Source: an uncultured Gammaproteobacteria bacterium (GTDB lineage: Bacteria; Pseudomonadota; Gammaproteobacteria; HK1). From it: a stretch of DNA of 64,000 nucleotides. Below, piece after piece: positions 20,367 through 57,109 of the stretch. The DNA lies in contig OY282353.1 in assembly GCA_958295465.1 (NCBI GenBank), forward strand, positions 5,515,664 to 5,579,663, written 5' to 3'. The notes under the pieces were generated by a model. The model did no database searches. It had not been told where the DNA came from and was given only the letters and a program-made list of their open reading frames with translations. Positions within the stretch are counted from its first letter, which is position 1, and every line of letters starts with the position of its first letter. Both the position numbers and the translations under genes were made by a program.

Positions 20367-20370
20367 GATT

Positions 20371-21357: not shown

Positions 21358-21371
21358 TGTCCCGTCTCCAT

Positions 21372-32423: not shown

Positions 32424-32433
32424 TGGGACCCCC

Positions 32434-33066: not shown

Positions 33067-33233
33067 GTCGATTCGCCCCGACCGTCCTCGCCGCACGCGG
33101 TCGAGGTCCGGATATGGCACAAGGGAAATGTACAATCCTTGAACAACAACGCTCCGCAGCAGGAGCCGCCTGCTGCGGAGCGTGGGGTGTGGAACCTGTT
33201 CGACTCCACATTCGGATATACCTCAGGTCGTCA

Positions 33234-34340: not shown

Positions 34341-34425
34341 CGGTGTTTCCTCCAGGTGGTTGCGCCCAATGAGGCCGGGCGTGATGCGATCCGGGGAGAC
34401 GGAGGTTGGCGAGACCGCGTTCATC

Positions 34426-37667: not shown

Positions 37668-37730
37668 AGTCCAATTCCTGCAAACAAGCAACATAGAAAG
37701 TTGGGCGCTGGAGTTGGCGCAGGACACACG

Positions 37731-38919: not shown

Positions 38920-39801
38920 TTACAGGGTCCGATTCCGGTTCGCACGGAGATAGCGCTCCAACGCATCCTGCCACGGCGGCATGGCCCCGAACGCGACCGA
39001 GACCTTGGCGTTGTCGAGCGTGCTGTAGCGCGGGCGCGCGGCACGGGTGGGATACTCCCCGCTCGAGCAGGGGGTGACGGCGGCTTCGACCCCGGCGAGG
39101 CGGATGATCTCGCGCGCGAACTCGAACCAGGTCGCCGAGCCGTCGTTGACCACGTGATAGAGTCCCGGCTCGCAACCATTCGCCAGCATCCGCAGGAGGA
39201 TGCGCGCGACGTCGGCGGTGGCGGTCGGGGACATGGTCTGGTCGTGGACGACCCGGAGCGCTCCCTTCTCCCGCCCGATGCGGATCATGGTCTCCACGAA
39301 GTTGCCGCCCTTGCCGCTGGCCCCGGCCGTCCCGAACAGCGAGGCCACGCGGAGGATGACGGCATCCTCGCAAGCGAGCCGCGCGAGCGTTTCGCCCATC
39401 GCCTTCGAGGCGCCGTAGACGTTGACCGGCGCGATCGGATCGTCCTCGCGGAATGGCCAAGTACGGGCGGCATCGCCGCCGAACACGTAATCGGTGCTGA
39501 TGTGGAAGAGCCGCACCCCCTTGGCGGCACACGCCCGCGCCATGGCCTGCACCGCGTGCGCGTTGACGGCGAAGGCGAGAGTCGCATTGCCCTCCACCTC
39601 GTCCGTCTTGTGGTAGCCGGTGCAGTTGACGAGGACGTCGAAATCCAGACCGCCAAGGATTCGCTCGATCTTCTCCGGCGCCGACACGTCCAGCCTGCCG
39701 CGGGCCAGCGGCAGCAGATCGAATGGCTCCCCGGCTTCCTCGTACGCGCACCGGACGTCGTGCCCGAGTTGCCCCCTCGGGCCCAACAGCAACACCTTCA
39801 T
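38920..39801 (-). CDS. rfbD: dTDP-4-dehydrorhamnose reductase
   Basis: 293 aa from MKVLLLGPRGQLG. Carries STDYVFGG and YGASK motifs. The ATG overlaps the upstream stop (ATGA). Confidence 0.85.
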   Translation of the reverse strand: MKVLLLGPRGQLGHDVRCAYEEAGEPFDLLPLARGRLDVSAPEKIERILGGLDFDVLVNCTGYHKTDEVEGNATLAFAVNAHAVQAMARACAAKGVRLFHISTDYVFGGDAARTWPFREDDPIAPVNVYGASKAMGETLARLACEDAVILRVASLFGTAGASGKGGNFVETMIRIGREKGALRVVHDQTMSPTATADVARILLRMLANGCEPGLYHVVNDGSATWFEFAREIIRLAGVEAAVTPCSSGEYPTRAARPRYSTLDNAKVSVAFGAMPPWQDALERYLRANRNRTL

Positions 39802-40820
39802 ATCTCGACGATCCCGCCGTACATCTCGACCTCGCGGATGATGCGATGCCAGCGGGCGAGCTCCCGGTACCAATCGAGGGTGATGGTCCGGATGGTCTTG
39901 TCGAGGGTTCCGGCTTCGAGTGCCTTGCAGACCTCGGCCACGCCGTCCGCGGCGGTCTTCTCGGTGCGGTAGCCGAGCGCCTCGATCTTGTCGAACGCCA
40001 CCCGGTAGCTCCGGACATCCGGGTCGCCATACCACTCGATCTCGACGTCTCTCGGAACGTATCCGGCCACCAGCTCTCCGAGAGGGCCGATCTGGTAGAC
40101 GTTTCCGGCGGAACCTACGTTGAAGATCTCCCCGTTCACCTTGGCCGGATCGGCTTCGAGCATGAACATCTGCGCCCGAGCCGTATCACGAACGTGCACC
40201 ATGGGCCGCCACTGCGTTCCGTCGCGCATCAAGGGGAGCTTGCCGGTCTTCCAGGCGCCGAAGGTCATGCCGTTGATGGCGAGGTCGAAGCGCATGCGCG
40301 GGGAAAGTCCGTAGACGGTGGCCTGGCGCAGCACCACGACACAGAACTTCTCGTCCGCGAGAGGCAGCACGCCCCGTTCCGCCATCTCGTTGGCGCGCGC
40401 GTAGGTGGTCAGCGGGTTGGTCGGGCTGGACTCGTCCGCGATGACGCCTCCCTCCTGGAAACCGTAGATACTGCATGAGGAGGGCAGCATGTAGCGCCGC
40501 ACGCCGGCTTCTCTGGCGAGATGGGCGGCGCGCACCCGCGAGTCGCGGTTGATCTGATACGTCGCCTCCTGGAACAGCTCGCCCGAGGGGTCGTTGGAAA
40601 TGGCTGCGAGGTCGATCACCGCGTCCACACCCTGAAAGTGTGCGGGCGTGAGCTTGCGGCTGTCTTCGACCACGACCTCGAGACGATCGTGCTCCGGCAG
40701 GAGGTGGCGGCCGAAGTAGAACCGGTCCACCGCCCTGACCGCGTAGCCCGCATCAAGCAGCAAGGGCACCAGCGCGGTGCCGATGTACCCGCCCGCGCCC
40801 GTCACCAGAACTTGTGTCAT
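39798..40820 (-). CDS. NAD-dependent sugar epimerase/dehydratase (SDR)
   Basis: VLVTGAGGYIG Rossmann motif, PSSCSIYG and YARANE (YxxxK-like region). Substrate not assignable. Confidence 0.75.
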   Translation of the reverse strand: MTQVLVTGAGGYIGTALVPLLLDAGYAVRAVDRFYFGRHLLPEHDRLEVVVEDSRKLTPAHFQGVDAVIDLAAISNDPSGELFQEATYQINRDSRVRAAHLAREAGVRRYMLPSSCSIYGFQEGGVIADESSPTNPLTTYARANEMAERGVLPLADEKFCVVVLRQATVYGLSPRMRFDLAINGMTFGAWKTGKLPLMRDGTQWRPMVHVRDTARAQMFMLEADPAKVNGEIFNVGSAGNVYQIGPLGELVAGYVPRDVEIEWYGDPDVRSYRVAFDKIEALGYRTEKTAADGVAEVCKALEAGTLDKTIRTITLDWYRELARWHRIIREVEMYGGIVEI

Positions 40821-40970
40821 ATGTATCTGCCCCACCTGACCCCGGCTCCGCAGACGATCCGAGGACTTGGCTGAAGTGTCATCCGGACTGCGAGGTATCG
40901 TTTCAGGAGCAGGGTGATACCGGCACCGAAACCGTTCATCAAGGGAATTTTTGTGCGAAGTGGTCCCCGG

Positions 40971-41525
40971 TCACCCGAATGGCGTCACAAGCTCCGCGAG
41001 GCGCGGCTGCCCGCGATCCTTGTCCGAAAGGACTGCTTCCGGTTCTGGAAGCGGCCACGCGATGCCGAGCACCGGATCGTTCCACAGAAGCCCCTTGTCG
41101 TGGTCCGGGGCGTAGTAATTGCCGACCTTGTAGATGACCTCGGTATCGGGCTCCAGCGTCATGAAGCCGTGGGCGAATCCGATCGGTACCAGAATCTGGT
41201 TCCACGCCTCGGCCGACAGGACGACGCTCGCATGCTGCCCGTAGGTGGGCGAGCCCCGGCGCAGGTCCACCGCGACGTCGAACACCGCCCCCCGCACCAC
41301 CCGCACCAGCTTGTCCTGGGCGAAGGGCGGCGTCTGGAAGTGCAGCCCGCGCACCGTCCCCTTCTCGGCCGATAGCGAGTGATTGTCCTGCACGAAGTCG
41401 ATGTCGATGCCGGCTTGGGCGAGCGAGTGTTTGTTGTACACCTCCGAGAAGAATCCGCGACGGTCGCCGTGCTTGCCTGGCGTCAGCATCTTCACGGCCG
41501 GAATGTTCGAATCTTCGACCCGCAT
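40971..41525 (-). CDS. rfbC: dTDP-4-dehydrorhamnose 3,5-epimerase
   Basis: GDRRGFFSE, RGLHFQ, KLVRVVRGAVFDVAVDLR and GFAHGF motifs. Confidence 0.9.
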   Translation of the reverse strand: MRVEDSNIPAVKMLTPGKHGDRRGFFSEVYNKHSLAQAGIDIDFVQDNHSLSAEKGTVRGLHFQTPPFAQDKLVRVVRGAVFDVAVDLRRGSPTYGQHASVVLSAEAWNQILVPIGFAHGFMTLEPDTEVIYKVGNYYAPDHDKGLLWNDPVLGIAWPLPEPEAVLSDKDRGQPRLAELVTPFG

Positions 41526-41736
41526 CGTCTGCCTCACCGGATTGATTGAGCTGCCCCGGGAATCCCGGAGACTACGATCACCGAGTCCTCTGAATATATT
41601 CCCATCACCGGAGCCGCGTAGCATCCGAACAGAATCGGGTCGAATCTTCCGACATCGCCATGGCATCGGCGGCGCGGGTGGCCGGCGCCGGCTCCTGTAC
41701 CGAATCCGATGGAACCGAAGGATCCACGGGAAGCGT

Positions 41737-42489
41737 TCATGAAAGCTCCTTGCGAGCGATGGCAACAGCATGGAGCGACTCACCCCGATCAATACATTGA
41801 TCATCGAGAAGCAGGCACAGTTCGAGTAACGGGGCATCCTCCGGAGTCATGTTCGCCAACACGTCGTTGAGTGCAAAGGCGTAAATGACGCCTCCAGTGA
41901 GAACGACGTCAGCATCCGGGAAAAAGGTTCGAACCGCATCGAGAATCCGTTCGCTGTCGGCAGCATCGGTCGGGTCGTCCGCGATCAATAACGCCACGTC
42001 CGGGCGGCCTCGCTTGACGGAGAGCCGTTTCGTCGAATCCCGCGGGTCGACGAGGAGGCGGTCCGGGAAGATGTTGCGTAATCTTTCAGACATTGAAAGA
42101 GTGAAGTCTGTCCACTGCCGCCGGGAAGGACCAATGAAATCGTCCATTACGAAGAAACCCCCGGGGCGAAGGATGGACTTGCTCCAGCCGACGGCCTGAT
42201 GCACATCGAGCATATGATGAAGAGCGTCGCCCCAGAATACCAAGTCATAGTGACCGGGTCTCGCCAGCTCGTCCGCTTCTCCGCTGGTGAATCGGATCCT
42301 TTCATCAAGACCTCGCCTTTTTGCAAGCTCACGTCCCTCACGTATGCGAATCTCGCTCAGTTCGAATACGTCGAATTCCTGAACCAGATCGGATTCTAGC
42401 ATGTCCATTTCGGCCGAGCCAGTCCCGCAACCGACGGATATTCCCTTGTCAAGCATGTCTCTCCCAAGACGTACTTGAAGCCGTTGCAT
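41737..42489 (-). CDS. Class I SAM-dependent methyltransferase
   Basis: Motif I ISVGCGTGS and post-I acidic residue. DLVFWGDALHH and RPGGFFVMDD motifs. Confidence 0.75.
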   Translation of the reverse strand: MQRLQVRLGRDMLDKGISVGCGTGSAEMDMLESDLVQEFDVFELSEIRIREGRELAKRRGLDERIRFTSGEADELARPGHYDLVFWGDALHHMLDVHQAVGWSKSILRPGGFFVMDDFIGPSRRQWTDFTLSMSERLRNIFPDRLLVDPRDSTKRLSVKRGRPDVALLIADDPTDAADSERILDAVRTFFPDADVVLTGGVIYAFALNDVLANMTPEDAPLLELCLLLDDQCIDRGESLHAVAIARKELS

Positions 42490-42601
42490 GACTCCTCCCC
42501 TGCGTCCAGGTACGGGTTCCCCACAAATATTCTTGTTGATGTGACTGATAATTTCTGGATGCTGCCAGAATCGAGTCTTATCCGGCCGAGGTTTTGAACT
42601 C

Positions 42602-43408
42602 TCATCGTCCCATTAGCTTTCTTGTCCTTTTGAGCCGATCCGGCGTGTTTTCCGCTCCCTTGCCAGGCCTGCTGCGTCCGTCCCGCGCTTCCAGCTTGCG
42701 GGCGGCGTGCCCTTCGCGCAAAAAAATCATACCTTCGTTGACGAACCAGGGTTTCTCCTGGTTGAACGATCCGTAGATTCTGGTGAACCGGGGAATAAAT
42801 CCGTTCTTGAAGAACAGAGATAAAATATCCTTTCGCACTATTCCCCACTGCCAATAATTGTGGACGTCCCTCATCACCTTACCTTGGGTGTGGGAATATT
42901 CGTCGTGCTCCGAAAACCAGCGCTCAATAGCAACCTCACGTGTGCAATGGACATTCGCCTTGTACCATTCGATGCCCTTGTCTACGAATCGGGTGGTGTT
43001 TTCGCTCCCGGTCCAATTCTGAGTGTAAATTATGCACATCCTGGTGTATGGCAGATAATCCCGGATGAACTGATCCCAATCAGGATCGACTTGGTGCAAC
43101 AGGATATCGTACATGATCAAACAATCGACTTCGCCTACCGCATCGCGAACTTCCTTCGCGCCGAGGGCTCCTTCGATCAAGGACACCTTCGGATAATCCC
43201 GGGACCTCTCTCTGGTCAAGGGAGTGATTTCTCCATCGACAATGAAGCCCCTCTCCAGACTGTCGCTGCAAACTTCCGCTGCGTGGAAAGCATAAGCGCC
43301 GTTTACTCCCCAGCAGGCTCCAAGATCGGCGAAAGATCGAAAGGGCATGATTCCATATGCCCGGTCGATCAGCTTCAACTTGTGAGGTGCGGGTTGCACG
43401 TCGAGCAT
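42602..43408 (-). CDS. Putative methyltransferase-like protein (weak)
   Basis: FADLGACWGVNG is motif-I-like and DCLIMYDILLH follows. It lies in the polysaccharide operon. Assignment is tentative. Confidence 0.45.
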   Translation of the reverse strand: MLDVQPAPHKLKLIDRAYGIMPFRSFADLGACWGVNGAYAFHAAEVCSDSLERGFIVDGEITPLTRERSRDYPKVSLIEGALGAKEVRDAVGEVDCLIMYDILLHQVDPDWDQFIRDYLPYTRMCIIYTQNWTGSENTTRFVDKGIEWYKANVHCTREVAIERWFSEHDEYSHTQGKVMRDVHNYWQWGIVRKDILSLFFKNGFIPRFTRIYGSFNQEKPWFVNEGMIFLREGHAARKLEARDGRSRPGKGAENTPDRLKRTRKLMGR

Positions 43409-43476: not shown

Positions 43477-43656
43477 GGGCTTGGAGCTCGTCCGACAGAC
43501 GCTTCGGAGAGGATGGGGTCATCTCGGCAATTCCGGGCCTGGAATCTCGCGTATCCGCCGCCAATCGTGGCCCAGAACGCGGCTGAGTGCCCGCGGTGCG
43601 GCGGCAGCGTCGCGTTCCTCCCTCTCCGAAGCGTCTGTCGGACGAGCTCCAAGCCC
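43477..43656. repeat. Perfect 36-bp inverted repeat flanking a 108-bp spacer, bracketing the stop codon of the 2393-aa gene
   Basis: 43477-43512 GGGCTTGGAGCTCGTCCGACAGACGCTTCGGAGAGG is the exact reverse complement of 43621-43656. Confidence 0.95.
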
Positions 43657-46600
43657 GCCGTAAAGCGGCGAATTCCCGGAAGAGGGTCCGGCGCCGGGAT
43701 AGACCCCCAAGCCGGCGGGCGCCAAGCCGGCGGCGAGCGATGACCAGACCTGCCGTCCCTCGGCGCTACCCGGAGCCGAGGCGGCGAAGCAATCGGTGTC
43801 AACGACGGCAAGGTCCACCTTCCCTTTCATGCTCGCAATCGCTTCGGCCGCCGAGTCCGGGTCCCGACCATGATATACCACATGAAACATACGTGCTCCG
43901 AGCGCCTTCCCGAGAGCCGGATCCATGGTGAGAAGCACCGCATGACCGCCTCGGTGTGTCCGCCAATCATGGGCGAGTCTCTGGAATACGCTCCGTCCGA
44001 ACGGTGTGGAGCCGCATCGAGCACAGGTCCCTGCATCCTCCAGAATACTCGCCGATTCCGCGTTGCAGACATTGCAACAGGCCCGGCGGCCGTTCCGGCG
44101 TGTATCAAGAAGACCCCGGGCGGTTTCCAGGGTCAGCGGATGCGCTACCACGGTATGCTCATCCAGGACGGCGGACAGGGTAGGAAGGGTCTTCACCGTC
44201 AAGGAAGCTACCTCACCGATCGCGCCCAGCTCCTCGCCTTGGCTCTCCAGGAAATAGCTGAACTCCACGTCCATGTTGTTCTGGGGAGTTTGTTCGGAGA
44301 AGCCGCCATGACGACCGATCACCGAGCGGCGGATGATGTAAACCCCGCCCTGGACGTGAGTAAAGACCCAATCGGGATTGCGTTTGGCGAATTCCTGGTT
44401 CCTGAATCTGGCGAAGTCGGGATGGCCGACGATCTCGCGCCCCAGGGTAAACCTCGGCAGATGGGTGCGGTATCCGGCCATCGCATGCCCCGGATTTCGC
44501 CGCATGTGATCGATGAGATACCGTTCCCAACCATGCTTCCCGACAAACGCTTCCTTGCTGCAAAGGTAGATGGAGAAACTCGCATCGCCGAGCGCCATCG
44601 CCATGTTGGAGGCCGGCCCGCACAGCAGGTTGTCCTTCAGGAAGACCAGGCGGACGTTCGACCTGCCGGTGCAGAGCTCGATCAGCTCCCGACGAAAATC
44701 CGGATCGCTGTTGTTGTCGATGATCGTCAACGTGAAGGGCGTGGTGGTGTGCCGCAGGACGCGCCGGATGATCTCGAACGTTTCCGCGCGGTTCTCGTAT
44801 TCCGCCGTGTTGTAGGTGACCATGAAGACGTCCACGGGACGGCTTTGCCAGACGTCCACGTAGTTTCGGAGGGTACGCTCGGTGCCGGCGTGTCTGCGCA
44901 GGAAGTTGCGGGCCTCCGACAACATGGCCTCCCGCCGTTCGGGAGTCATGGCGAGAAGCCGGCGAACGCCGTCCACCAGGCTGTGCGGGTCTCCAGGGGT
45001 CACCAGGATGGCCTCGGCCATGTCCCGCAGATAGTCCGGCACCGCCGAAACGGCGCTTGCGATGACCGGGCGGCCCGCCGCCATGGCCTCGAGAATCACC
45101 GTGGGGAAGCCTTCCCTGTCGCCGTCGGCGGCGACGATGCTCGGAACCACCAGGAAATCGGCTTCCCCGATTGCCGCCGCTACGGCCTGGACGCCGTCGA
45201 GCGGCCCCTTGATGTTGACGTTCTCGATGCCGAGCTCCGCGAGCTTCTTGCGACAGGAGGTTTCCAACGGTCCGTAACCGTAGACGTCGAAAGCAACGGA
45301 GGTTCCCTGCAACCGAGCGGCGGCGTCGATCAGGACCTCGATTCCCTTCTTCTCGATGAAACGGCCGATGAGGATTCCCCTCCTGACTTCGGACGGCGGC
45401 GAAGGGAAGTCCGCCAGAGGCGGGATCTTCTCGAACTCGGAAAGATCGACGGCCTGCATGTTGAAGGCGATCTTCTCGGCCGGCACGCCCTGCTCTTCGA
45501 GAAAGCGGCGATGATGATCGCCGTAGACGAATACCTTGAGGCACCGAGGGTCCCGGACGACTTCCGCGATCCGATTTCGGTTCCTGTTGTGATCGTGGAA
45601 AATGTCCACTGCATGAGCAAACAGGGTGAAAGGTATGCCGGTCGCCTTGCTGGCCGGCCAGGTCAGGGCATGCGCGGCAGGCGCCGCAAAGTGCGTATGG
45701 CACAGCGTGCGTCCATCCCGGATCAGGAGCTTGGCCAGATGCGTTGCGTCGCGCACCCGGTGGGCATCGATCTCGAAGTCCGGCTCGGCGGCGCGATCCG
45801 GTTCGATTCTGAAATAAACGGCCACGTCTTGTCCGTTGCGAACGAGCCAGCGAAGCTCCTCCAGTACGAAGGTTTGTGAAAGCGCCGGCCAATCCCAGAG
45901 GACATAAGCCAGCTTGATCGGAACGATACCATGTCGGATCCGCTCTGCCGCATGTTTCCTCAAAACGCGTTTCATATTGGCGCCGAGATCCACCGTGTGG
46001 GTGATGTTACCGAGTTCCGCCTTGCCAAGATAATAGTCCGCTCCGACATAAGGAACGAAAACAGGACTGTATCGCCTTGTAACGGATATGATGAAATCCC
46101 AATCGACCAGACGGGTCAGATCCACATCGAATCCGCCATTTTGCAGATAGACGTATCTCCGGTGCATGAAGGTGTTCAGATCGATGAAATTCTTAATCAG
46201 GAGTTCCGCCCGATCATAAGGTACGGAATGGATGTAATCGGCGCCGGAATCCAGGTTATGGAGATGAAAGGCCGCATAGGCCGTAGCAACTTCCCTTGCG
46301 CTGGAAAACAAGGCCGCCATTACCAGCAGATAATCCCTGCGCCAGGTATTGTCGCTGTCCAGGTATGCAATGAGATCACCCGTCGCGCTCTTCAAGCCGG
46401 CGTTTCTCGTATCGCATACCCCGGTGTGAGACTTCTCGATCAGCCTGACAATTCCCGAATTTATTTCGGCTGCGAATCGATCGCGTACGACATCTCGGCT
46501 TGAATCGTTGCTCCCGTCGTCTACGACGATGATCTCATGAGGCATGTACGACTGCGCGAGAACCGATTGTATGGCCCTGCATATGAACTTCTCCCTGTTC

Positions 46601-49600
46601 CATACCGGCATGATCACGGAAACGGTCGGTCGCTCCTCTGCAAGCTCCCGCTCCGCAATTTCCCTGATGCCGCCCGGTAGATCTTCCGCCGCAGTATTTC
46701 CGAATCTCTGAAGCTCCTCGATCAGTCGATTCCGCGGCCTCCGGAGATGCGACAGATCAGGTCCGTGTACGAGCTCGCCCACATCGAACTGCCCACCGAA
46801 ATCCATGCTCGCGAAATCCATGCTCGGCATCGACTGAAATCCCTTATGCACGCCGATCCGTAGATGGAAGAGCAGAGGATTGATCCCGCTCGATGCGGCT
46901 TCAGGATAGCGGGACAAGTAGGAAATCCCATTGAAGTCCTTGCTGGGTTGGCGTTTTTCATGCCAGCCCTGGGTGCAATAGTGGCTGAGTGGATCGACAC
47001 CGGAGGAACGAACGTCCGGATTTGCTTCGAGGTAGTACTTCTCATCGAAAAAACCGGACCGCCGAACTTCATCTATGTCATCGGCCATGCTCGGAATGTG
47101 ATCGGGCCATTCTTCATCGCCATCGACGCTCGAGGGATGATGACCGGAAGCGGTCCCGATGGGAGCCGTAGCGGTCACGTTGAACCCGGATTCCTTCACG
47201 AGCAGGCCCATGACCCTCTCGATGGCGTGCTGCAGACATCCATCCGTCTGGCCTGCCTCCACTTCGAATTGTTCCGGATCGATCAGCTCCTTGTCCATGA
47301 GCCCCTTCAACGATGCGACTCGAAACCAGAACATCGAACCGGCGGAGAAGTCGAAGTTATAGGAGCCGATCAGATCTGCTCGCCCAATTTTTCGTAGCAG
47401 CTTGTCCAGCCAGTAGTGGTTACTGATGTGACGTTGCCTCTTCGATAGATCCACCAGAGACCCCCGGGGAACGATCATGCCCAGCTTCTCGTCTCGTGAG
47501 AACTCGCGGGTGATCTCTTCGATATCCGTCTTCAGTAAAGCATCCAGAAGCCTTTTGCGTATCGCATCGCCGTCATTTCTATATTCCGTCTTCTTGGTGT
47601 GTATCTTGCAAGCCGTTTCGTAACCACGTTCGACCAGGAGAGGATAGATCTTCAGGAAGGGGCGAATATCGCGTCCGCGATTTTCCAACATCATCATGTA
47701 CAGGTTGGGGAACTTCCCGCGAATCCTGGCTATTGTCGCCATGGAGACGGATTCGTGCACCGTCACGAACATGTCGATCTTGCCGGCGATCGGATCCAGG
47801 TACTCTGTAATAATGTCGTCTACGAGGTCTTCGTAATATACGTGAAATATCACGCAAATGTCGTTCGATTTCTTGAATCTTGCATTTATCTCTTCAATCA
47901 GATTCCTTCTGCTCACCGTTTCGAGGGCGGATCGGGTCGCCTGCAGATATGCGTGGCCGTATCGCTGATCCGGCTCCAGGTAGGCACCTTCCGCCCACTC
48001 GTTCCAGGCGTTGATGAACACCAGCCTCTCGTCCCCGGTACGGCGCGCACATGTCCGTTCCATGACACCCCGCAACCACTTCTCGTACGCACCGGGGCTC
48101 GCGCCGTGAAAAATGGTAGCCGAGTCCCGTCTGCGAGCCGTGTTGTCCCAGTCAGGAGCTACACAATGGAACCTCGTGATATGGTCCGGAATGTCCGCTT
48201 CCAAGCGTCTCTCGACAAGCTTGGTGTAGCTCCGAACCGATCCGGCGTAATTGGGATTCAGTTTTCGTCCCGGTATCCCGATGCCAAGATCGTGCGAACC
48301 GTGGGGCGGATATTCGACAATAGCATCCATACCGTAGATCGCCGGATCGGTATCGACGCGCTCATATTCGAACGATGCGACCATGGCCAGATATAATTCA
48401 CCAACGCCTTCCTCTCTGCAGAGCTCACGCCAGCTACGCACGGTGGATTGAATATCGGGAAACAACCCGATCCTGTAGACCAGGAACAGGGGTTTCCCAT
48501 CTATTCGTATGTAGTTGGGGTGCCTGAAGTACCGAATCACATCACGCATGGCCTCCAAATCGTCCTCAGCGTGATGCCGCTGAGCGAGCAGTATCTCACC
48601 CTCCTTCCCGTCCCAGCGTCGGGTCCAGGGTTCATTTGCCCATGACAGGCAGAAGGGAAAATCCGGCTTGCCGGTCGCGAGCATTCTCTCGATCGGCATT
48701 TCCAGCAGGCGCCGCCCCTCGAACCAATAGTAGTGATAGCAGAAACCGTGGATTCCGTAGTAGCGCGCAAGAGCCGCCTGCCGCTCCATTACTTCGACGA
48801 TTCGCAAATCGTAGAAGCCGAGGTCCGCGGGGAGACGGGGTTGATAGTGTCCTTCGAATTGGGGAGCTGCCTTTCCGACGTTCGTCCATTCCGTGAAGCC
48901 TTGTCCCCACCACTCGTCATTTTCAGGAATCGGATGAAACTGGGGCAAATAGAACGCGATCAGTTTCACGGACAGGGATTCCGGATCGATCGGATCGGTA
49001 CATTTCGCGACGTGCGATCCCGACCGGGAATCTGCAACCTCCAGCGGACGGTATGGCTTAGGACGTGGATTCGATCCGTGCGAATCCATCCGTGGGTGAG
49101 ATTCGCCCCCCCAGTTGCGCTCGGCGACCGCTTCGCTCAACCCCTGGATGCGCCCGTTGCGCTCCGCGGCTTTCCTGGCATGAGCGAAGTCCTCCCACGC
49201 GCGGTAGGCGTCCGTGTATCGAAACAGCAGCGGGGCAGATCGGAAGAGCTCCTCCTTGATGCGCATCTTGACCGACCAGGGAAGTGGCAATCGGTAATAG
49301 AGCCATTGAGCGGTCAGACTTGCGATCGTGCGCGCCTTCGACACCGGCCTCTGTATGACATGTCGCTGCAAGCTTCGAAGCGGAGCGGTGATCCGCCAAC
49401 TGTTGGAGCCGTACAGGGCCGCGATCTCGTCTCCACGCCGGTCCAAGGCCTCGTTCAACTCCTCGATGCGCCCGTCGCGCTCGGCGACCATCTCGCTCAG
49501 CCCCTCGATGCGCCCGTCGCGCTCGGCGACCATCTCGCTCAGCCCCTCGATGCGCCCGTCGCGCTCGGCGACCATCTCGCTCAGCCCCTCGATGCGCCCG

Positions 49601-50700
49601 TCGCGCTCGGCGACCATCTCGCTCAGCCCCTCGATGCGCCCGTCGCGCTCGGCGACCATCTCGCTCAGCCCCTCGATGCGCCCGTCGCGCTCGGCGACCA
49701 TCTCGCTCAGCCCCTCGATGCGCCCGTCGCGCTCGGCGACCATCTCGCTCAGCCCCTCGATGCGCCCGTCGCGCTCGGCGACCATCTCGCTCAGCCCCTC
49801 GATGCGCCCGTCGCGCTCGGCGATCGATTGTTCGCAGTCGGCAATGTAGCGGCTGAAGAGCGGTGTCGCTTCGTCGAAAGCCGATCTGATTCGATCCAGC
49901 AATGCGATATCCGTCTCGCAAACCTCACCGCGACTCCATCGATTGAACAATTCGAAGCACTGCCCAAGCCAGCGTGAGAGTACGGGATTCGTCAGAAACG
50001 TCGCGTCGTCGGACTGATGATGGTGCAGCTCGGGAGAGAGGAATCGCTCGATCTTCGCATGAGCATGAACCGACGCGCGCTTCGGCCACGAAACGTCGAG
50101 GTCCCGTCCCAGACGATCCGTGATCGCGTGCGGTTCGGAGAGAAGCGTCTCGTAACGCAAACATGCGCGCTTGAGGTTCCGCGATCCCGATTCCGCTTCC
50201 AACACGTGCCGCAGCCAGATGAGATGCCCGCAGGAAACGCCGATTCCATCGCGTTGCTTCAGTGACGTGGCCACGTCGAGGGGATTGCGGATGGGTAATA
50301 CGACTCGAGGCTCGGCGCCGAACGTTTCCAGCGCCTCGATCCAGAAGGGGAGCAATCGGCATAGACGAGGGTCTTTCACCACGAATAGCCGGCTGTCGCC
50401 GAATTCCCGGTGGAGCAACACCTGGGCCCGTTCCCGGAACGGGCCGGCCGTCGGGGAAGCATACCAACCCGGATCGAAGGGTCGCCAATCATTCCAATCG
50501 GAATCCGAGGACCACAGAATATCCCGATTCAGCTCCCAGATCGGTCGAGACTCCCAGAATCCTTCATCGTTGTTGTCGGGAACGGGCTCCATCAAGGTCT
50601 TCGGCAGGTCGCACCCCTCCAGATTCAATACGCGAGACAGGGCCGAGGTGCCGCTCCGGTGCATGCCGGCGACGAGGATCGCGATCTTTCGATGGGACAT
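43519..50700 (-). CDS. 2393-aa multidomain polysaccharide synthase: sulfotransferase, coiled-coil repeats, WbsX-like, RgpF-like, GT2, GT4, GT2, Zn-ribbon tail
   Basis: N-terminus GMHRSGTS plus RNPLDVATS (PAPS-binding motifs). [14 protein letters not shown] x8. [25 protein letters not shown] (WbsX). [20 protein letters not shown] (RgpF). [24 protein letters not shown] (GT2). [20 protein letters not shown] (GT4). [15 protein letters not shown] (GT2). CCNVCN..CARCGS (Zn ribbon). Confidence 0.85.
49444..49821 (-). repeat. In-frame tandem repeat: 42-bp unit, 8 identical copies plus 1 degenerate copy
   Basis: GACCATCTCGCTCAGCCCCTCGATGCGCCCGTCGCGCTCGGC starts at 49486 and then every 42 nt to 49780. 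The degenerate unit at 49444-49485 encodes [14 protein letters not shown]. Confidence 0.95.
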
Positions 50701-50733: not shown

Positions 50734-51675
50734 CTAGAGCTTGTTCAACAAGGATGCGGCAAGCAGTCCGAGAGTTTCCGCACGCCTCTGGCGGTACACG
50801 CCGGACTTGATGATTCGCCGCAGTCTGGACGAAAAACGGCCCTCGGTCACCGCTTGGCGGTAGGTGTCGAAGATGCGCCGGTTCTCCGGCGCAAGAAGGT
50901 GTCTGGTTTCATACAACGCCCGGCAGTTCGCGGCGTTGGAGTCTCGAAAGTCGCCTCTGGCAATCCTTGCGAGGCGCCGGGCGTGGTCGGATGGACGGAC
51001 CGACGAACCAATCAGGTTGCGATCATGCTGGCGATACCGTGCAGAAGGATGCGGATCGTAGAACACCTTTCCGCCGGCGCCGGTGACGAGAAGGTATGTC
51101 CACCAATCGTGGATCGGTCCCTCCCTTACGCCCGAGGCGCGCAGGAGCTCGCGCGCCGCCCGGTTCATGACCATGGTGTGCCCGCTGACGATGTTCTGCG
51201 CCAGCGCGTTCCGAAAGCACGGCGGCCTGCGGTACAGCGGCGAAAGCCCCAGATCGCGACCGTTCTCGCCAATCAGCCGCGTCCTCGACCCATAGAGCGC
51301 CGGGACGGCATCGGGAGCCCGCTCCAGCACTGCTACGGCGCGAGACAGCTTGTCGCGATACCAGACGTCGTCCTGGTCCGAATAGGCGAAATAATCGGCT
51401 CGAATCTCCGGATTGAAGACCAGGGAGAAAAAATTCGCCGAGCATCCCTGCTTCGGCCCTTCGAGGACGAAAAAGCGATCCGCTCCGAACGTGGGGGCAT
51501 GCTCTTCAAGCACGGCACCCACGTCTTCCCCGTCGCAGTCTCTCGATATCCATAATTCGAAGTTCTCGTGGCTCTGGGCCCGGATGGACGAGAGCTGCTC
51601 CGGCAGGAAGCGTGCATCTTCGAACACCGCCATGAGCACCGCGACCTTGGGCCGGGTCCCCGTCTCGCCGTTCAA
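50734..51675 (-). CDS. GT2-family glycosyltransferase (rhamnosyltransferase-like)
   Basis: PKVAVLMAVFEDARFLPEQLSSIRAQ and YSDQDDVW (DxD). A probable TTG start at 51675 overlaps the wzt stop (TTGA). Confidence 0.75.
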   Translation of the reverse strand: MNGETGTRPKVAVLMAVFEDARFLPEQLSSIRAQSHENFELWISRDCDGEDVGAVLEEHAPTFGADRFFVLEGPKQGCSANFFSLVFNPEIRADYFAYSDQDDVWYRDKLSRAVAVLERAPDAVPALYGSRTRLIGENGRDLGLSPLYRRPPCFRNALAQNIVSGHTMVMNRAARELLRASGVREGPIHDWWTYLLVTGAGGKVFYDPHPSARYRQHDRNLIGSSVRPSDHARRLARIARGDFRDSNAANCRALYETRHLLAPENRRIFDTYRQAVTEGRFSSRLRRIIKSGVYRQRRAETLGLLAASLLNKL

Positions 51676-52430
51676 TGATTCATCTCCCCGTACTCCCGCA
51701 GCACCTCGCCTATCGGCCCGGACGCTCTGACCCGCCCGGCATCGAGGAGCACTCCCGTGGTGCAGTTGCGCTCGAGCAACGCGGGGTTGTGAGAAGCGAG
51801 CACCAGAATGCCCGCGCGGTTCACGAACTCTTCGAGCCGGCGTCCAGCCTTCTCGACGAAGGCCGCATCGCCGAGCCCGATCCATTCGTCCATCAACAGG
51901 ATCTCGGGCTCGATGCAGGTACACACCGCGAGGGCGAGTCGCAGCTTCATGCCGGTCGAGTAGGTATGCATCGGCATCGCCAGGTAGTCGCCGAGCTCGG
52001 TGAATGCCGCTATTTCACCGGTGCGCTCGCGAACCTCCGCCGGAGTGAACCCGAGGAATATCCCGCGCATCATGATGTTCTCGTATCCCGTTGCACTTGG
52101 ATCGATGCCCAGAGACCAATCGAACAGCGGGGACACCTGCCCCCGGCGCCGCATCCACCCCAACGTCGGCTGGTAGACGCCCGCGAGCACCCGCAGCAGC
52201 GTCGTCTTGCCTGAGCCGTTGGTGCCGATCAGGCCGACCCGGTCGCCACGCCCGAACGTGAGACTCACGTCCTCCAGCGCCCGCACCGACACACGGTTTT
52301 CGGCGGTGCGGGCGATGCGCCCGCCGGTGCTCTTGCGCAGCAGGTTGTTCTTCAGGGAGCGGGAATCCGCGCTGTACACCGGGAAATCGACCGTCACGCC
52401 GGTGAGCTGAAAGCCGGTCTCGATGTTCAT
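51672..52430 (-). CDS. wzt: Polysaccharide-export ABC transporter ATP-binding protein (Wzt/TagH-like), short form
   Basis: Walker A GTNGSGKTT, signature YSTGMKLRL, Walker B ILLMDE. At 252 aa there is no C-terminal glycan-binding domain. Confidence 0.85.
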   Translation of the reverse strand: MNIETGFQLTGVTVDFPVYSADSRSLKNNLLRKSTGGRIARTAENRVSVRALEDVSLTFGRGDRVGLIGTNGSGKTTLLRVLAGVYQPTLGWMRRRGQVSPLFDWSLGIDPSATGYENIMMRGIFLGFTPAEVRERTGEIAAFTELGDYLAMPMHTYSTGMKLRLALAVCTCIEPEILLMDEWIGLGDAAFVEKAGRRLEEFVNRAGILVLASHNPALLERNCTTGVLLDAGRVRASGPIGEVLREYGEMNH

Positions 52431-53329
52431 ACCCAGTAAGCGATCCGCCCGCGGTAGAGGCGATACATGAGGAGCGTCACGAGCCAGCCGCCGAGGGTGA
52501 TGCCCAGGACCACGAGCCACGAGACGAGCCCCGGCGTCTGCCCGAGCGCCGGCGCCCGCACCAGCTCCATGAAATGAAAGAACGGATTGAGGTCCAACAG
52601 GTATGCGCGGTCGGGCACCAGTTCGGGCTTCCAGATGATCGGCGTCAGGAAGAAGGCGATCCGCATGACGCTGGCCACAAGCTGGGGAACGTCCCGGAAG
52701 CGGGCCGACACCAGGCCGAGCAGCAGCCCTATCCACACGCCGTTCAGACAGAGAAGCGCAAGGCCCGGGAGGAACAGAAGCCCGGCCCAGCCCGGTTGGA
52801 TCGAGAAAAGGACGGCCGCGACGATATACACGACGGCGTTGTGGGCGAAGATGATGAGGTTGCGCCATGCCAGGCGGTACACATGGATCGACAGGGGCAG
52901 GTTCACCTGCTTGATGATGCCCCCGGCGCTGATGAACACGGTGCAGCCTTCGTTGATCTGGTCCGAGAGCAACCCCCAGAGGACAAAGCCGGCGGCGATG
53001 AACGGCAAGTAGTCCGCGACGTCCACCTTGAACAGTCCGGCATACAGCACGCCCAGCCCCCCCACCAGCGCCCCCATGCTCACGGTGAGCCAGAACGGAC
53101 CGAACGTGGAGCGGCGATAGCGCAGACGGATGTCCTGCCAGCCGAGCATGCCCCATAAACGGAAAGCGCAAGCCCCCCCGATGATGTCCTGAAGGGCCAG
53201 CGTGGTTTGCGATGAGGGGGGAGACGTGAGGGCGATGTTTCTGGAGGTTTCCGCCGCGCTGTCGTCAGGTACGGCCGAATGGGCACCCGCATCGGCTGAT
53301 GACATCTGCATTCGATCTCCTTGCGCCAT
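52427..53329 (-). CDS. wzm: ABC-2-type polysaccharide export permease (Wzm)
   Basis: 6-TM ABC-2 pattern (WQDIRLRYRRSTFGPFW). ATGA overlap with wzt. Start codon uncertain. Confidence 0.8.
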   Translation of the reverse strand: MAQGDRMQMSSADAGAHSAVPDDSAAETSRNIALTSPPSSQTTLALQDIIGGACAFRLWGMLGWQDIRLRYRRSTFGPFWLTVSMGALVGGLGVLYAGLFKVDVADYLPFIAAGFVLWGLLSDQINEGCTVFISAGGIIKQVNLPLSIHVYRLAWRNLIIFAHNAVVYIVAAVLFSIQPGWAGLLFLPGLALLCLNGVWIGLLLGLVSARFRDVPQLVASVMRIAFFLTPIIWKPELVPDRAYLLDLNPFFHFMELVRAPALGQTPGLVSWLVVLGITLGGWLVTLLMYRLYRGRIAYWV

Positions 53330-54100: not shown

Positions 54101-54182
54101 AAGGACGGGATACGGGATCGCACCGGCGGCCGGATGACGGCCTGCTGAAGGATCCACGAGGGGAAAAACGGTGGACATCACC

Positions 54183-55055
54183 ATGAAGGGCATCATCCTC
54201 GCCGGCGGAGAAGGCACACGGCTTTACCCCGTGACGAGCGCGGTGAGCAAACAGCTCCTGCCCGTCTACGACAAGCCGATGATCTACTACCCGCTGAGTG
54301 TTCTGATGCTCGCGGGGATCCGGGACATCCTGGTGATCACCACGCCACGGCATCGCGCCGACTTCCAGCGGTTGCTGGGCGACGGCAACCGATGGGGCCT
54401 CGCGCTCCGCTACGCCGTGCAGCCGAACCCCGACGGCCTGGCGCAAGCCTTCCTGATCGGCAAGGCATTCATCGGGGACGCCCCCTGCGCCCTGGCGCTC
54501 GGCGACAACATCTTTCACGGACACGGCCTGACCGAGACACTGCGAAGCGCCGTGTCCCGACGCAAAGGAGCGACGGTCTTCGGCTACCAGGTTCCCGATC
54601 CTGAGCGCTACGGCGTGGTCGCCTTCGACGAGACCGGCCGCGCCACGTCCCTCGAGGAGAAACCTGCCCGTCCCCGCTCGCAATGGGCGGTGACGGGACT
54701 TTACTTCTACGACAACGACGTCGTCCGCATTGCCGCGGAGGTCGAGCCGAGCGGGCGCGGCGAGCTGGAGATCACCAGTGTCAACGAACACTACCTTGAA
54801 CGTGGTGACCTCCGCGTAGAAAGGCTGGGCCGCGGATTCGCCTGGTTCGACACCGGGACGCACGACAGCCTCGTGGAAGCCGCCGGATTCGTCCGGACCA
54901 TCGAGAAGCGCCAGAACCAGCGCATCGCCGTTCCCGAGGAAATCGCCTTCCTGAACGGCTGGATCGGCCGCGATGCGCTGGCCGCCCTCGGCCACGATCT
55001 CCGCAAGACCGGTTACGGGAAATACCTGTTGCGACTGGCAAAGGAATCTGAATAA
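54183..55055 (+). CDS. rfbA: Glucose-1-phosphate thymidylyltransferase
   Basis: [35 protein letters not shown] and LGDNIF are canonical RmlA motifs. Confidence 0.95.
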
Positions 55056-56980: not shown

Positions 56981-57109
56981 GATGTCCCAATCCGGTATGA
57001 GGTGTGCGTGGCGCCGGTCCCGCACTCCATACGGCATCCTGCGCCGCCGAGCGCCGGCCACGCCGCCGCGTCCCGTTCGCCGCCGCCCGTCCCTCGGGGG
57101 GAGCGCACC

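What the first reader, a model, noticed from the sequence alone, without database searches (positions are those of the whole stretch)
43519..50700. 2393-aa single-polypeptide glycan factory: terminator-like sulfotransferase, coiled coil and five glycosyltransferase-type domains
**Domain order read from motifs**
1. PAPS-type sulfotransferase ([17 protein letters not shown])
2. Repeat/coiled-coil region ending in the [13 protein letters not shown] motif
3. WbsX-like domain
4. RgpF-like domain
5. GT2
6. GT4
7. GT2
8. Cys4 zinc ribbon

**Context**
- The gene sits with wzm/wzt, rfbA/C/D, a UDP-xylose synthase and two methyltransferases. That makes this an ABC-transporter-dependent O-antigen or rhamnan-type locus.

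**Established knowledge**
- In such pathways WbdD (E. coli O9a) and WbbB (Klebsiella O12 / Raoultella) combine a chain-terminating enzyme, a coiled-coil molecular ruler and, in WbbB, the polymerising glycosyltransferases.

**Inference**
- This protein may be an expanded analogue in which sulfation terminates the chain. I am not aware of a described sulfotransferase terminator with this architecture.
Basis: partly seen in the sequence, partly recalled or inferred. Interest (0 to 1): 0.7.

Follow-up and report, generated by a model that had tools for sequence, protein, structure and literature searches.

The report
Sulfotransferase-headed coiled-coil polysaccharide assembly giant
One 2393-residue bacterial protein joins a sulfotransferase-type head, a long repeat-built helical spacer and five sugar-adding modules next to a polysaccharide exporter, which resembles known "terminate and measure" O-antigen machines but would cap the chain with sulfate, a chemistry not yet tested for them.

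Summary
The ORF is real: 43519-50700, minus strand, 2393 aa.

**Domain order**
- Sulfotransferase-fold head with both PAPS motifs invariant.
- Nine 14-aa repeats, eight of them identical 42-nt units.
- Conserved SWRxTAPLR motif.
- WbsX, RgpF C-half, GT2, GT4, and a divergent third GT-A domain.
- Invariant Cys4 ribbon.

**Context**
- The gene lies in a wzm-wzt / rmlA-C-D locus.
- ~92-94% identical syntenic loci keep the same head and coil but carry four different glycosyltransferase cassettes, with 2-15 repeats.
- The head family has about 13,000 clusters. It nearly always sits N-terminal.
- In distant relatives (Dyella, Rhodanobacter, a Chloroflexi MAG) it lies beside a Wzt that carries the cap-reading Wzt_C module.

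**Verdict**
- The WbdD/WbbB-like "terminator - ruler - polymerase" reading is the best explanation.
- Three things remain open. This locus's Wzt (243 aa) has no such module. Termination by sulfation is untested. The coil structure is inferred.
- The "UDP-xylose synthase" and the "second methyltransferase" were not verified.
- It is a new variant of a known kind, of moderate to high interest.

The parts
49825..50700 (-). N-terminal PAPS-sulfotransferase-fold head (aa 1-292). The 5'-PSB motif GMHRSGTS is at aa 12-19 and the 3'-PB motif RNPLDVATS at aa 138-146.
   Evidence: AF2 model has pLDDT 92. The top 20 Foldseek PDB hits are all sulfotransferases. The motifs are invariant. Pfam Sulfotransfer_3 is sub-threshold.
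49411..49824 (-). Repeat/coiled-coil spacer (aa 293-430): 8 identical 42-nt (14-aa, [14 protein letters not shown]) units, one diverged unit and a tail.
   Evidence: TRF reports 49450-49823, 8.9 copies, 99% identity. Unit-by-unit listing. SlyX-like hits are sub-threshold. Copy number is 2-15 in close homologues.
48964..49410 (-). Post-coil conserved region (aa 431-579): the [13 protein letters not shown] motif (49372-49410), a basic aromatic stretch and a degenerate extra repeat.
   Evidence: The motif occurs in 71 of 120 homologues. It is also present in Dyella, Rhodanobacter and L045 relatives. The stretch has 17 K/R against 6 D/E and no TM segment.
47935..48963 (-). WbsX / GH99-like domain (aa 580-922).
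   Evidence: Pfam PF14307, E 9e-134. Only faint sequence similarity to GH99 structures.
47161..47934 (-). RgpF C-terminal-half domain (aa 926-1172).
   Evidence: Pfam PF05045, model positions 250-502, E 2e-36.
46651..47160 (-). Linker module with FFDExYYLxxNPDV-type repeats (aa 1181-1350). It contains a 15-nt tandem duplication at 46797-46826.
   Evidence: The module recurs in many family members in front of GT modules. TRF result.
45901..46650 (-). GT2 module with a canonical DSD motif (aa 1351-1600).
   Evidence: Pfam PF00535, E 2e-31. PDB match to K4CP, 1e-18.
44821..45900 (-). GT4 (GT-B) module (aa 1601-1960).
   Evidence: Pfam PF13692 and PF00534, E about 1e-26.
44131..44820 (-). Third, divergent GT-A-fold module (aa 1961-2190) with LCSKE where DxD is expected.
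   Evidence: No Pfam hit. Profile against PDB matches K4CP at 2e-7. AF2 model plus Foldseek match to 6p61, E 7e-10, TMt 0.72.
44014..44076 (-). Cys4 zinc-ribbon-like motif (C2209, C2212, C2226, C2229).
   Evidence: All four cysteines are invariant in 12 homologues down to 28% identity.
43522..44013 (-). Small alpha/beta domain, a disordered stretch and a conserved C-terminal amphipathic helix (aa 2369-2386, window 43543-43596).
   Evidence: AF2 secondary structure. This helix has the highest hydrophobic moment in the protein, 0.70. The consensus RxLSRxxxxDWRR is conserved.
50734..51924 (-). GT2 gene immediately upstream. The ORF is 396 aa, but relatives are 299-313 aa, so the true start is probably near 51675.
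   Evidence: Pfam GT2. The gene is conserved at the same position in L081-L084.
51672..52403 (-). Wzt, the ABC-transporter ATPase: 243 aa with no C-terminal carbohydrate-binding module.
   Evidence: Pfam ABC_tran. Translation and end of the protein.
52427..53329 (-). Wzm, the ABC-2 permease.
   Evidence: Pfam ABC2_membrane.
54171..55055 (+). RmlA.
   Evidence: Pfam NTP_transferase, E 6e-75.
41737..43408 (-). Downstream gene pair: a 268-aa ORF of unknown family (42602-43408) and a SAM methyltransferase (41737-42489, with homology extending to 42684). They form one 556-aa gene in relative L084.
38920..41837 (-). RmlC (40971-41837 ORF), an SDR epimerase (39798-40835) and RmlD (38920-40035 ORF).
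   Evidence: The RmlD equivalog scores 268 bits, above its cut-off.
55994..60015 (.). Initiation genes: a GT2 with rhamnosyltransferase-like similarity (55994-57226, -), a WecA-family phosphotransferase (56651-58126, +) and a WbpM/CapD-like dehydratase (57784-60015, +).

Best explanation
The protein is the central assembly enzyme of an ABC-transporter-dependent, rhamnose-containing surface polysaccharide of the O-antigen type.

**Shown**
- One polypeptide carries, in order: a PAPS-sulfotransferase-fold head; a spacer of about 130-170 residues built from 14-aa repeats; a conserved basic SWRxTAPLR segment; and five GT-type modules (WbsX, RgpF-C, GT2, GT4, divergent GT-A). It ends in a Cys4 ribbon and an amphipathic helix.
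- In near-identical syntenic loci the head and coil stay constant, while the polymerase cassette is swapped, inserted or deleted.

**Inferred mechanism**
- The C-terminal modules, held at the membrane by the amphipathic helix and/or the basic segment, polymerise the repeat unit on an undecaprenyl-linked primer. That primer would be made by the WecA-like enzyme and the neighbouring GT2 enzymes.
- The coil projects the sulfotransferase head about 20 nm from the membrane.
- When the growing non-reducing end reaches the head, it is sulfated from PAPS, which blocks further extension.
- Coil length, in 14-aa steps of about 2 nm, would then set the modal chain length.
- The finished chain is exported by Wzm/Wzt. 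In this lineage the transporter lacks a cap-reading module, so export is probably not gated by the cap.
For: - **Domain order and identities:**
- **Head is a sulfotransferase:** pLDDT 92; only sulfotransferases among the top 20 Foldseek matches (TPST, CurM-ST, OLS-ST, Stf9).
- **Catalytic apparatus looks intact:** the 5'-PSB and 3'-PB motifs plus E50, K109 and R138 are invariant.
- **A distant member passes Pfam thresholds:** the L009 head clears the gathering scores of Sulfotransfer_3 and Sulfotransfer_1.
- **Head position:** the head is N-terminal or nearly so in all of the top 150 of about 13,362 clusters (E<=1e-30). It is followed by a coil-like region in most of the 120 closest giants.
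- **Published paradigm:** terminator distal to a coiled-coil ruler, with or without fused polymerase modules (PMC11231755).
- **Hallmark pairing in relatives:** head-coil-SWR-GT genes lie directly after a Wzt with Wzt_C in Dyella flava, a Rhodanobacter MAG, a Chloroflexi MAG and L045.
- **Locus:** wzm-wzt, rmlA/C/D, WecA-like and WbpM-like genes.
- **Cassette swapping behind a constant head:** four variants with DNA breakpoints at the coil.
- **Variable coil:** 2-15 repeats in close relatives; about 60 to 300 aa in distant ones.
Against: - The Wzt here, and in all four close syntenic loci, is about 243-252 aa with no carbohydrate-binding module. No Wzt_C was found elsewhere in the giant protein or in the neighbouring ORF. 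PMC11231755 says all characterised terminated systems have one.
- About half of the more distant head-bearing loci also lack it.
- Pfam Sulfotransfer_3 is below threshold for this protein.
- The coil is not modelled. Each 14-aa unit contains two glycines and an Arg at alternate d positions, and the SlyX matches are sub-threshold.
- There are no PAPS-synthesis genes in the window, although those genes normally lie elsewhere in a genome.
- No chemical structure of the polymer is known, and the organism is uncultured and unidentified.
Confidence: 0.5

Rival explanations
1. The architecture is the same, but the sulfotransferase head is a decorating enzyme, not a terminator. It would sulfate internal or every repeat-unit residues, or only some chains. 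The coil would serve for oligomerisation or scaffolding. Chain length would be set by the balance between polymerase and Wzm/Wzt, as in K. pneumoniae O2a. In O1 a terminal pyruvate is likewise added without controlling length.
For: - Wzt lacks a carbohydrate-binding module here and in the close relatives.
- PMC11231755 describes O2a, where length is set by stoichiometry, and O1, where a non-gating terminal pyruvate is added.
- One close relative (P0005) has only 2 repeats, and P0006 also has 2. Such a coil is too short to be much of a ruler.
Against: - The head is consistently placed at the end of a long spacer, opposite the polymerase modules, across thousands of clusters. That is hard to reconcile with an enzyme that must act on every repeat unit as it is made.
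- The same family is paired with Wzt_C in several lineages.
Confidence: 0.3
2. The head is not an active carbohydrate sulfotransferase. It could be a nucleotide-binding or regulatory pseudo-enzyme, a kinase-like P-loop domain, or an enzyme acting on a non-glycan substrate such as a lipid carrier or protein. The giant protein would then simply be a scaffolded multi-GT polymerase.
For: - The Pfam match is sub-threshold.
- TM-scores to solved sulfotransferases are only about 0.48.
- Kinase-fold PFKFB proteins appear among the weaker Foldseek hits.
- No biochemical data exist.
Against: - Both PAPS-binding motifs and the candidate catalytic Glu and Lys are invariant across sequences down to 26% identity. 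That argues for retained catalysis.
- All of the top 20 structural matches are PAPS sulfotransferases.
- A distant member passes two Pfam sulfotransferase thresholds.
Confidence: 0.12
3. The long ORF is an assembly or sequencing artefact that fuses several genes.
For: - The gene contains eight identical 42-nt repeats, which assemblers can miscount.
- Shorter versions of the gene exist in relatives.
Against: - The reading frame is uninterrupted with coding-type GC3 along its length.
- An independent contig encodes a 92%-identical 2340-aa protein with the same order.
- The shorter relatives differ by clean in-frame module indels, not by frameshifts.
- The source contig is 5.68 Mb.
Confidence: 0.02

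Closest known systems
WbbB (Klebsiella pneumoniae O12 / Raoultella terrigena)
   Same: A single polypeptide carries an N-terminal chain-terminating enzyme, a coiled-coil ruler and C-terminal polymerising GT modules, and it works with Wzm/Wzt (as described in PMC11231755).
   Different: - The WbbB head is a beta-Kdo glycosyltransferase (GT99). Here the head has a sulfotransferase fold.
- No sequence similarity was detected.
- WbbB has 2 polymerase modules; this protein has 5 GT-type modules.
- The O12 Wzt has a CBM that reads the cap. The Wzt here has none.
ORF6 of K. pneumoniae O7
   Same: An N-terminal terminator (methyltransferase-kinase), a coiled coil, then fused GT2 rhamnosyltransferase modules; a rhamnose-containing polymer; further GTs supplied by separate proteins (PMC11231755).
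   Different: - Its cap is methyl-phosphate, not a presumed sulfate.
- Its transporter has a CBM.
- The module families differ: it has no WbsX, RgpF or GT4 module.
WbdD (E. coli O9a / K. pneumoniae O3, O5)
   Same: A catalytic head separated by an extended coiled coil from a membrane-proximal region with an amphipathic helix and a polymerase docking site; coil length sets chain length (PMC11231755; PMC3482155 listed).
   Different: - The WbdD head is a kinase plus methyltransferase.
- Its polymerase, WbdA, is a separate protein.
- A Wzt CBM is required for export.
- It is not homologous to this protein.
HNK-1 sulfotransferase acting on LARGE1-made matriglycan (mammals)
   Same: Precedent for sulfating the non-reducing end of a growing glycan. 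The capping reading (3-O-sulfation of terminal GlcA stops extension) is from my own knowledge, not read here. The work itself, Sheikh et al. 2020, is only cited in the reference list of PMC12514197.
   Different: It is a eukaryotic Golgi system. The enzyme is separate and freely acting, with no coiled-coil ruler and no ABC transporter.
PAPS-dependent sulfotransferases with solved structures (TPST1/2, CurM-ST, OLS-ST, Stf9, heparan-sulfate 3-OST)
   Same: The fold and both PAPS-binding motifs.
   Different: - Sequence identity is only 13-16%.
- None of them is fused to a coil and GT modules.
- The acceptor is unknown here.

Membership tests
Coiled-coil terminator / molecular-ruler systems of ABC-transporter-dependent glycan assembly (WbdD / WbbB / O7-ORF6 paradigm) | The locus encodes a Wzm/Wzt ABC-2 transporter next to the assembly protein. 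| tested here: met
   Wzm is at 52427-53329 and Wzt at 51672-52403. Only one GT2 gene separates them from the giant gene.
Coiled-coil terminator / molecular-ruler systems of ABC-transporter-dependent glycan assembly (WbdD / WbbB / O7-ORF6 paradigm) | A non-polymerase catalytic module lies at the end of the spacer opposite the polymerase and membrane end. | tested here: met
   The sulfotransferase-fold head is aa 1-292, the repeats are aa 293-430 and the GT modules run from aa 580.
Coiled-coil terminator / molecular-ruler systems of ABC-transporter-dependent glycan assembly (WbdD / WbbB / O7-ORF6 paradigm) | The spacer is an extended coiled coil. | tested here: inconclusive
   - 14-aa repeats with I/V at every a position, and L alternating with R at d.
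- The modelled helix 262-291 runs into the repeats.
- Matches to the coiled-coil family SlyX are below threshold.
- There are two Gly per unit.
Coiled-coil terminator / molecular-ruler systems of ABC-transporter-dependent glycan assembly (WbdD / WbbB / O7-ORF6 paradigm) | Wzt carries a C-terminal carbohydrate-binding module that reads the cap. | tested here: not met
   - The window Wzt is 243 aa and ends just after the ATPase domain.
- Wzt is 252 aa in L081-L084.
- The feature is met in distant relatives of the same head family: L009, L031, L045 and L049 have Wzt_C at E 1e-14 to 1e-23.
Coiled-coil terminator / molecular-ruler systems of ABC-transporter-dependent glycan assembly (WbdD / WbbB / O7-ORF6 paradigm) | A terminal cap on the glycan stops polymerisation, and chain length follows coil length. 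| not testable with these tools
   This needs polymer chemistry and mutants. The only indirect hint is that coil length varies naturally (2-15 repeats).
WbbB / GT99 beta-Kdo terminators and WbdD kinase-methyltransferase terminators (sequence families) | The head domain is homologous to GT99, or to the WbdD kinase and methyltransferase. | tested here: not met
   The head alone has no PDB sequence match at E<=10. No WbdD or WbbB is among the 60 matches listed for the whole protein, all of which fall in the GT2 or GT4 modules. The head fold is sulfotransferase.
PAPS-dependent sulfotransferase superfamily | A 5'-phosphosulfate-binding P-loop and a 3'-phosphate-binding R...S motif. | tested here: met
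   G12-MHRSGTS-19 and R138-x-P140...S146 are invariant or nearly invariant in 30 and in 115 homologues.
PAPS-dependent sulfotransferase superfamily | The sulfotransferase fold. | tested here: met
   The AF2 model has pLDDT 92 and pTM 0.91. The top 20 Foldseek PDB hits are all sulfotransferases, E 2e-6 to 1e-3, TM about 0.48.
PAPS-dependent sulfotransferase superfamily | The curated Pfam score threshold is reached. | tested here: not met
   Sulfotransfer_3 scores 22 bits against a cut-off of 27 for this protein. The related L009 head passes, with 56 bits for Sulfotransfer_3 and 45 bits for Sulfotransfer_1.
PAPS-dependent sulfotransferase superfamily | Sulfate is transferred from PAPS to an acceptor. 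| not testable with these tools
   Requires an enzyme assay.
Pfam Glyco_tran_WbsX, RgpF, Glycos_transf_2, Glycos_transf_1 / Glyco_trans_1_4 | The score is above the family gathering threshold. | tested here: met
   Scores are 446.8, 126.4, 109.4 and 93.8 / 91.8 bits, against cut-offs of 23-27. The RgpF match covers only the C-terminal half of the model.
GT2 / GT-A glycosyltransferases (third module, aa 1961-2190) | A GT-A fold with a DxD metal-binding motif. | tested here: inconclusive
   The fold is met. The DxD position reads LCSKE, or VCGKE / ASTD in homologues (and the sequences), so activity is uncertain.

The most novel reading that the evidence does not exclude
The ruler itself is a hypermutable in-frame VNTR. 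Eight identical 42-nt units, with 2-15 units among >80%-identical heads from related strains, would let a population retune polysaccharide chain length in steps of about 2 nm by slipped-strand or recombinational gain and loss. The same repeats would act as recombination sites for swapping polymerase cassettes behind a constant sulfotransferase head. Together with a sulfate cap that the transporter does not proof-read, because it has no CBM, this would be a distinct and very widespread (about 13,000 clusters) mode of bacterial glycan length control.
Probability: 0.2. Interest if true: 0.8.

Novelty: new variant of a known kind. Interest (0 to 1): 0.58.

Why it matters
- **A new capping chemistry.** Experimentally established caps in ABC-transporter-dependent glycan assembly are methyl, methyl-phosphate and alpha- or beta-Kdo; pyruvate is a non-controlling terminal addition. 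A sulfate cap installed by a ruler-mounted sulfotransferase would add another chemistry.
- **A very large family explained.** It would account for an essentially unannotated family of proteins currently labelled 'GH99-like' or 'hypothetical'.
- **A natural test set.** The four cassette variants and the 2-15 repeat alleles behind one conserved head form a natural experiment for the ruler hypothesis.
- **A tool for glycoengineering.** They also offer a toolkit of swappable polymerase modules.
- **A test of the export rule.** The lack of a cap-reading module on Wzt tests whether termination and export gating must be coupled.

Tried and rejected
- **PDB sequence search with the head alone:** only chance ribosomal hits. 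I used structure prediction instead.
- **Literature searches:** sulfotransferase combined with WbdD, Wzt, molecular ruler, chain-termination chemistry or coiled-coil found nothing relevant. The one Wzt hit is an unexplained small sulfotransferase-domain ORF beside wzt and wbbB in Aeromonas salmonicida.
- **Papers that could not be opened:** the key census (Mann, Kimber, Whitfield 2019) and the 2020 JBC review. One search was wasted on a badly chosen term.
- **'WbsX' search:** returned filarial-antigen papers.
- **Genome-contig scan:** neither the source species nor any close relative is present; the best identity is 36-60%.
- **Cluster look-up:** gave only generic names.
- **CobN search for taxonomy:** gave only 'Chromatiales MAG' at 88% and Kiloniellaceae or Pelagibius at about 70%, so the organism stays unassigned.
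- **'UDP-xylose synthase':** the SDR at 37701-38711 scores equally poorly for RmlB, LegB, ArnA and UXS. Rejected as unverified.
- **'Two methyltransferases':** only 41737-42489 has methyltransferase hits. The 268-aa ORF has none.
- **A hidden CBM in the giant protein or in neighbouring ORFs:** no Wzt_C hit.
- **Transmembrane anchoring:** no TM-like segment.

Full report
**1. Observation**

The window has one uninterrupted ORF at 43519-50700 on the minus strand, 2393 aa. Its codon-position GC bias is of the coding type.

Pfam places these domains:
- WbsX at aa 580-922 (E 9e-134).
- The C-terminal half of RgpF at 926-1172 (E 2e-36).
- GT2 at 1361-1470 (E 2e-31).
- GT4 at 1776-1932 (E about 1e-26).
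- Only a sub-threshold Sulfotransfer_3 match at 8-206 (22 bits against a cut-off of 27).

The last 427 residues have no Pfam family. Tandem Repeats Finder reports 8.9 copies of a 42-nt unit at 49450-49823. Eight of these are identical to the base, and each encodes [14 protein letters not shown].

**2. The head is a sulfotransferase by fold and by motif**

- Sequence search of aa 1-293 against PDB found nothing.
- I aligned 30 diverse homologous heads (A1). The resulting AlphaFold2 model has pLDDT 92 and pTM 0.91.
- The top 20 Foldseek matches in PDB are all PAPS-dependent sulfotransferases. They include tick and human TPST, CurM-ST, olefin-synthase ST, Stf9 and HS 3-OST (E 2e-6 to 1e-3, TM about 0.48).
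- In 115 homologues, G12-MHRSGTS-19 (5'-phosphosulfate loop), K109-D-P-R112, R138-x-P140...S146 (3'-phosphate motif), N44, G47, W49-E50, R150, W162, R178 and H227 are 90-100% conserved.
- This pattern indicates a retained active site. The assignment of E50 and K109 as catalytic residues, by analogy with TPST and CurM-ST, is from my own knowledge and was not tested.

**3. Spacer and what follows it**

- The modelled helix 262-291 runs straight into the repeats.
- Within the repeats the a positions are I/V, and the d positions alternate L and R.
- NCBIfam and Pfam SlyX (a coiled-coil family) match below threshold.
- A coiled coil is therefore likely but was not modelled. Two glycines per unit are a caveat.
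- Nine units correspond to about 19 nm of helix, at about 2.1 nm per unit.
- Right after the coil comes [13 protein letters not shown] (aa 431-443). The motif SW[RK]x[TS]xP[LIVMF][RK] occurs in 71 of the 120 best homologues. It is also present in Dyella, Rhodanobacter and L045 relatives.
- The next 80 or so residues are strongly basic and aromatic (17 K/R against 6 D/E).
- The protein has no transmembrane segment. Its strongest amphipathic helix is the conserved extreme C-terminus, aa 2369-2386.
- By analogy with WbdD (PMC11231755), these are candidate membrane-binding or docking elements. This is inference.

**4. C-terminal 440 residues**

- A 12-sequence alignment (A2) used as a profile hits GT2 structures, with K4CP at 2e-7.
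- The AF2 model (pLDDT 80) matches GT-A enzymes over its first 230 or so residues (6p61 at E 7e-10 and TMt 0.72; SpsA; K4CP).
The DxD position, however, reads LCSKE, so its activity is uncertain.
- C2209, C2212, C2226 and C2229 are invariant. This supports a Cys4 zinc ribbon.
- A small alpha/beta domain and a disordered stretch follow.

**5. Locus**

On the minus strand, upstream of the giant gene:
- Wzm (52427-53329).
- Wzt (51672-52403).
- A GT2 gene (50734-51924 ORF).

Downstream:
- A 268-aa ORF with no family hit.
- A SAM methyltransferase.
- RmlC, an SDR epimerase and RmlD.

Nearby: RmlA, a rhamnosyltransferase-like GT2, a WecA-family initiating enzyme and a WbpM-like dehydratase.

This is an ABC-transporter-dependent, rhamnose-containing O-antigen-type locus. 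Three further points:
- Wzt is only 243 aa and ends just after its ATPase domain, so it has no carbohydrate-binding module.
- The SDR at 37701-38711 cannot be called a UDP-xylose synthase. It scores 98 bits against a cut-off of 294, and it scores equally weakly for RmlB.
- No PAPS-synthesis genes lie in the window.

**6. Close relatives show cassette swapping behind a constant head**

Four syntenic loci share wzm - wzt (252 aa) - GT2 - BIG GENE - ... - rmlC - epimerase - rmlD. Three of them come from one metagenome sample. The big gene differs:
- L084: 2340 aa with the same order as the window, 92% identical.
- L081: head-coil-GT2-GT4-GT-A-Zn, 1611 aa.
- L082: head-coil-WbsX-RgpF-methyltransferase, 1458 aa.
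- L083: head-coil-RgpF-GT2, 1515 aa.

Further comparisons:
- The heads are 82-87% identical in protein.
- At DNA level the window matches L081 at 92% from wzm through the coil (53389-49453), and again from 46864 onward. Relative to L081, the window therefore carries a clean in-frame 2.6-kb module (SWR linker, WbsX, RgpF) that begins exactly at the repeats.
- Repeat number among these close homologues is 2, 6, 9, 10, 11, 13 or 15.
- The fused ORF is therefore genuine, and the protein is modular in evolution as well as in structure.

**7. The wider family**

- A profile of the head finds 13,362 clusters at E<=1e-30 among 1.84 billion representatives (28,538 at E<=1e-3).
- In the best 150 the head is at or near the N-terminus. 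Protein lengths run from 325 to 2256 aa.
- The genome scan found head-coil-GT proteins in Proteobacteria, Chloroflexi and Desulfobacterota.
- In four loci the gene starts immediately after a Wzt of 458-484 aa whose extension is a bona fide Wzt_C domain (E 1e-14 to 1e-23). These are Dyella flava DHOC52, a Rhodanobacter MAG, a Chloroflexi MAG and L045.
- In those proteins the motifs [12 protein letters not shown] and RxPxxVxxS are present. Three of the four also carry SWRxTAPxR; the Chloroflexi protein does not. Non-repetitive coil-like spacers range from about 60 to about 300 aa.
- The Chloroflexi head passes both Pfam sulfotransferase thresholds.
- In six other loci (five if L001 and L005, two near-identical Pseudomonas MAG loci, are counted once) Wzt lacks the module.

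**8. Mechanism**

The published paradigm comes from PMC11231755:
- A terminating enzyme sits at the distal end of a coiled-coil ruler.
- Polymerase modules are fused (WbbB, O7-ORF6) or recruited (WbdD).
- A Wzt CBM gates export.

The present protein matches the fused format point for point, except for the CBM.

I therefore favour a sulfotransferase terminator mounted on a repeat-built ruler, with export not gated by the cap in this lineage (confidence about 0.5).

The rivals are:
- **Non-terminating sulfation, with length set by transporter stoichiometry as in O2a (0.3).** The missing CBM and the 2-repeat alleles favour it. The conserved head-at-the-far-end geometry and the Wzt_C pairing in relatives argue against it.
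- **An inactive or differently directed head (0.12).**
- **An artefactual fusion (0.02).**

**9. Comparison and novelty**

- The protein works like WbbB or O7-ORF6 but is not homologous to them.
- I found no open paper describing a sulfotransferase terminator.
- I could not read the 2019 census of terminator chemistries, which may already predict such heads. That tempers the novelty claim.
- I rate it a new variant of a known kind, with interest 0.58.
- The most novel reading still open is that the perfect in-frame VNTR makes the ruler hypermutable and also provides the recombination site for cassette exchange.

**10. Organism**

The organism is unassigned. The best named CobN relatives are a 'Chromatiales' MAG at 88% and Kiloniellaceae or Pelagibius at about 70%. 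The genome scan did not contain the source species.

Noticed in passing
window 16308-22000: A low-GC island (45-47% against about 68% in the flanks). It holds an integrase-core gene (16308-17570), a 647-aa AAA_21/AAA_15 ATPase (18489-20432), an N6/N4 DNA methylase (20371-21357) and small unknown ORFs. It looks like a mobile restriction-modification or defence island.
   Followed up: partly
window 41737-43408 (-): The 268-aa ORF and the methyltransferase ORF together align to a single 556-aa protein of relative L084. The alignment switches frame around 42623-42684, so there is a frameshift or a split gene here. L081 also has two genes (226 and 330 aa) at this place.
   Followed up: partly
window 46797-46826 (-): A perfect 15-nt tandem duplication inside the giant gene encodes ...SMDFASMDF.... 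It lies about 40 nt from the right-hand breakpoint (46864) of the module present in the window but absent from L081.
   Followed up: no
L081-L084 (L081, L083 and L084 from sample ERZ19489113; L082 from ERZ19489055): Four different polymerase cassettes behind one conserved head occur in syntenic loci. Three of them come from the same metagenome, which suggests co-existing serotypes of closely related strains.
   Followed up: partly
window 37701-38711 (+) and the whole locus: No clear RmlB (dTDP-glucose 4,6-dehydratase) accompanies rmlA, rmlC and rmlD. The only candidate is an SDR that scores 118 bits against the equivalog cut-off of 365.
   Followed up: partly
window 61775-63901 (-): CofD (2-phospho-L-lactate transferase) and F420-0:gamma-glutamyl ligase genes are present. 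This points to coenzyme F420 biosynthesis in what otherwise looks like a proteobacterial genome.
   Followed up: no
window 10724-15987 (+) and 31062-34619 (-): There are two separate TRAP transporter gene sets (DctP, DctQ, DctM). The first has an unusually long 887-aa DctM ORF with three matched stretches.
   Followed up: no
window 25219-27405 (-): A 728-aa protein with four rhodanese-like domains.
   Followed up: no
window 43519-50700, per-module composition: GC content differs between modules: 52% in RgpF and the first GT2, 57% in WbsX, 64% in GT4 and 73% in the repeats. All except the repeats are below the roughly 68-70% of the flanks, which fits a mosaic, horizontally exchanged locus.
   Followed up: partly
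PMC4483657 (Aeromonas salmonicida wb cluster): A 216-aa sulfotransferase-domain ORF lies between wzt (438 aa) and a wbbB homologue. Its authors left it unexplained because no sulfate is known in that O-antigen. It may be a stand-alone relative worth comparing.
   Followed up: no
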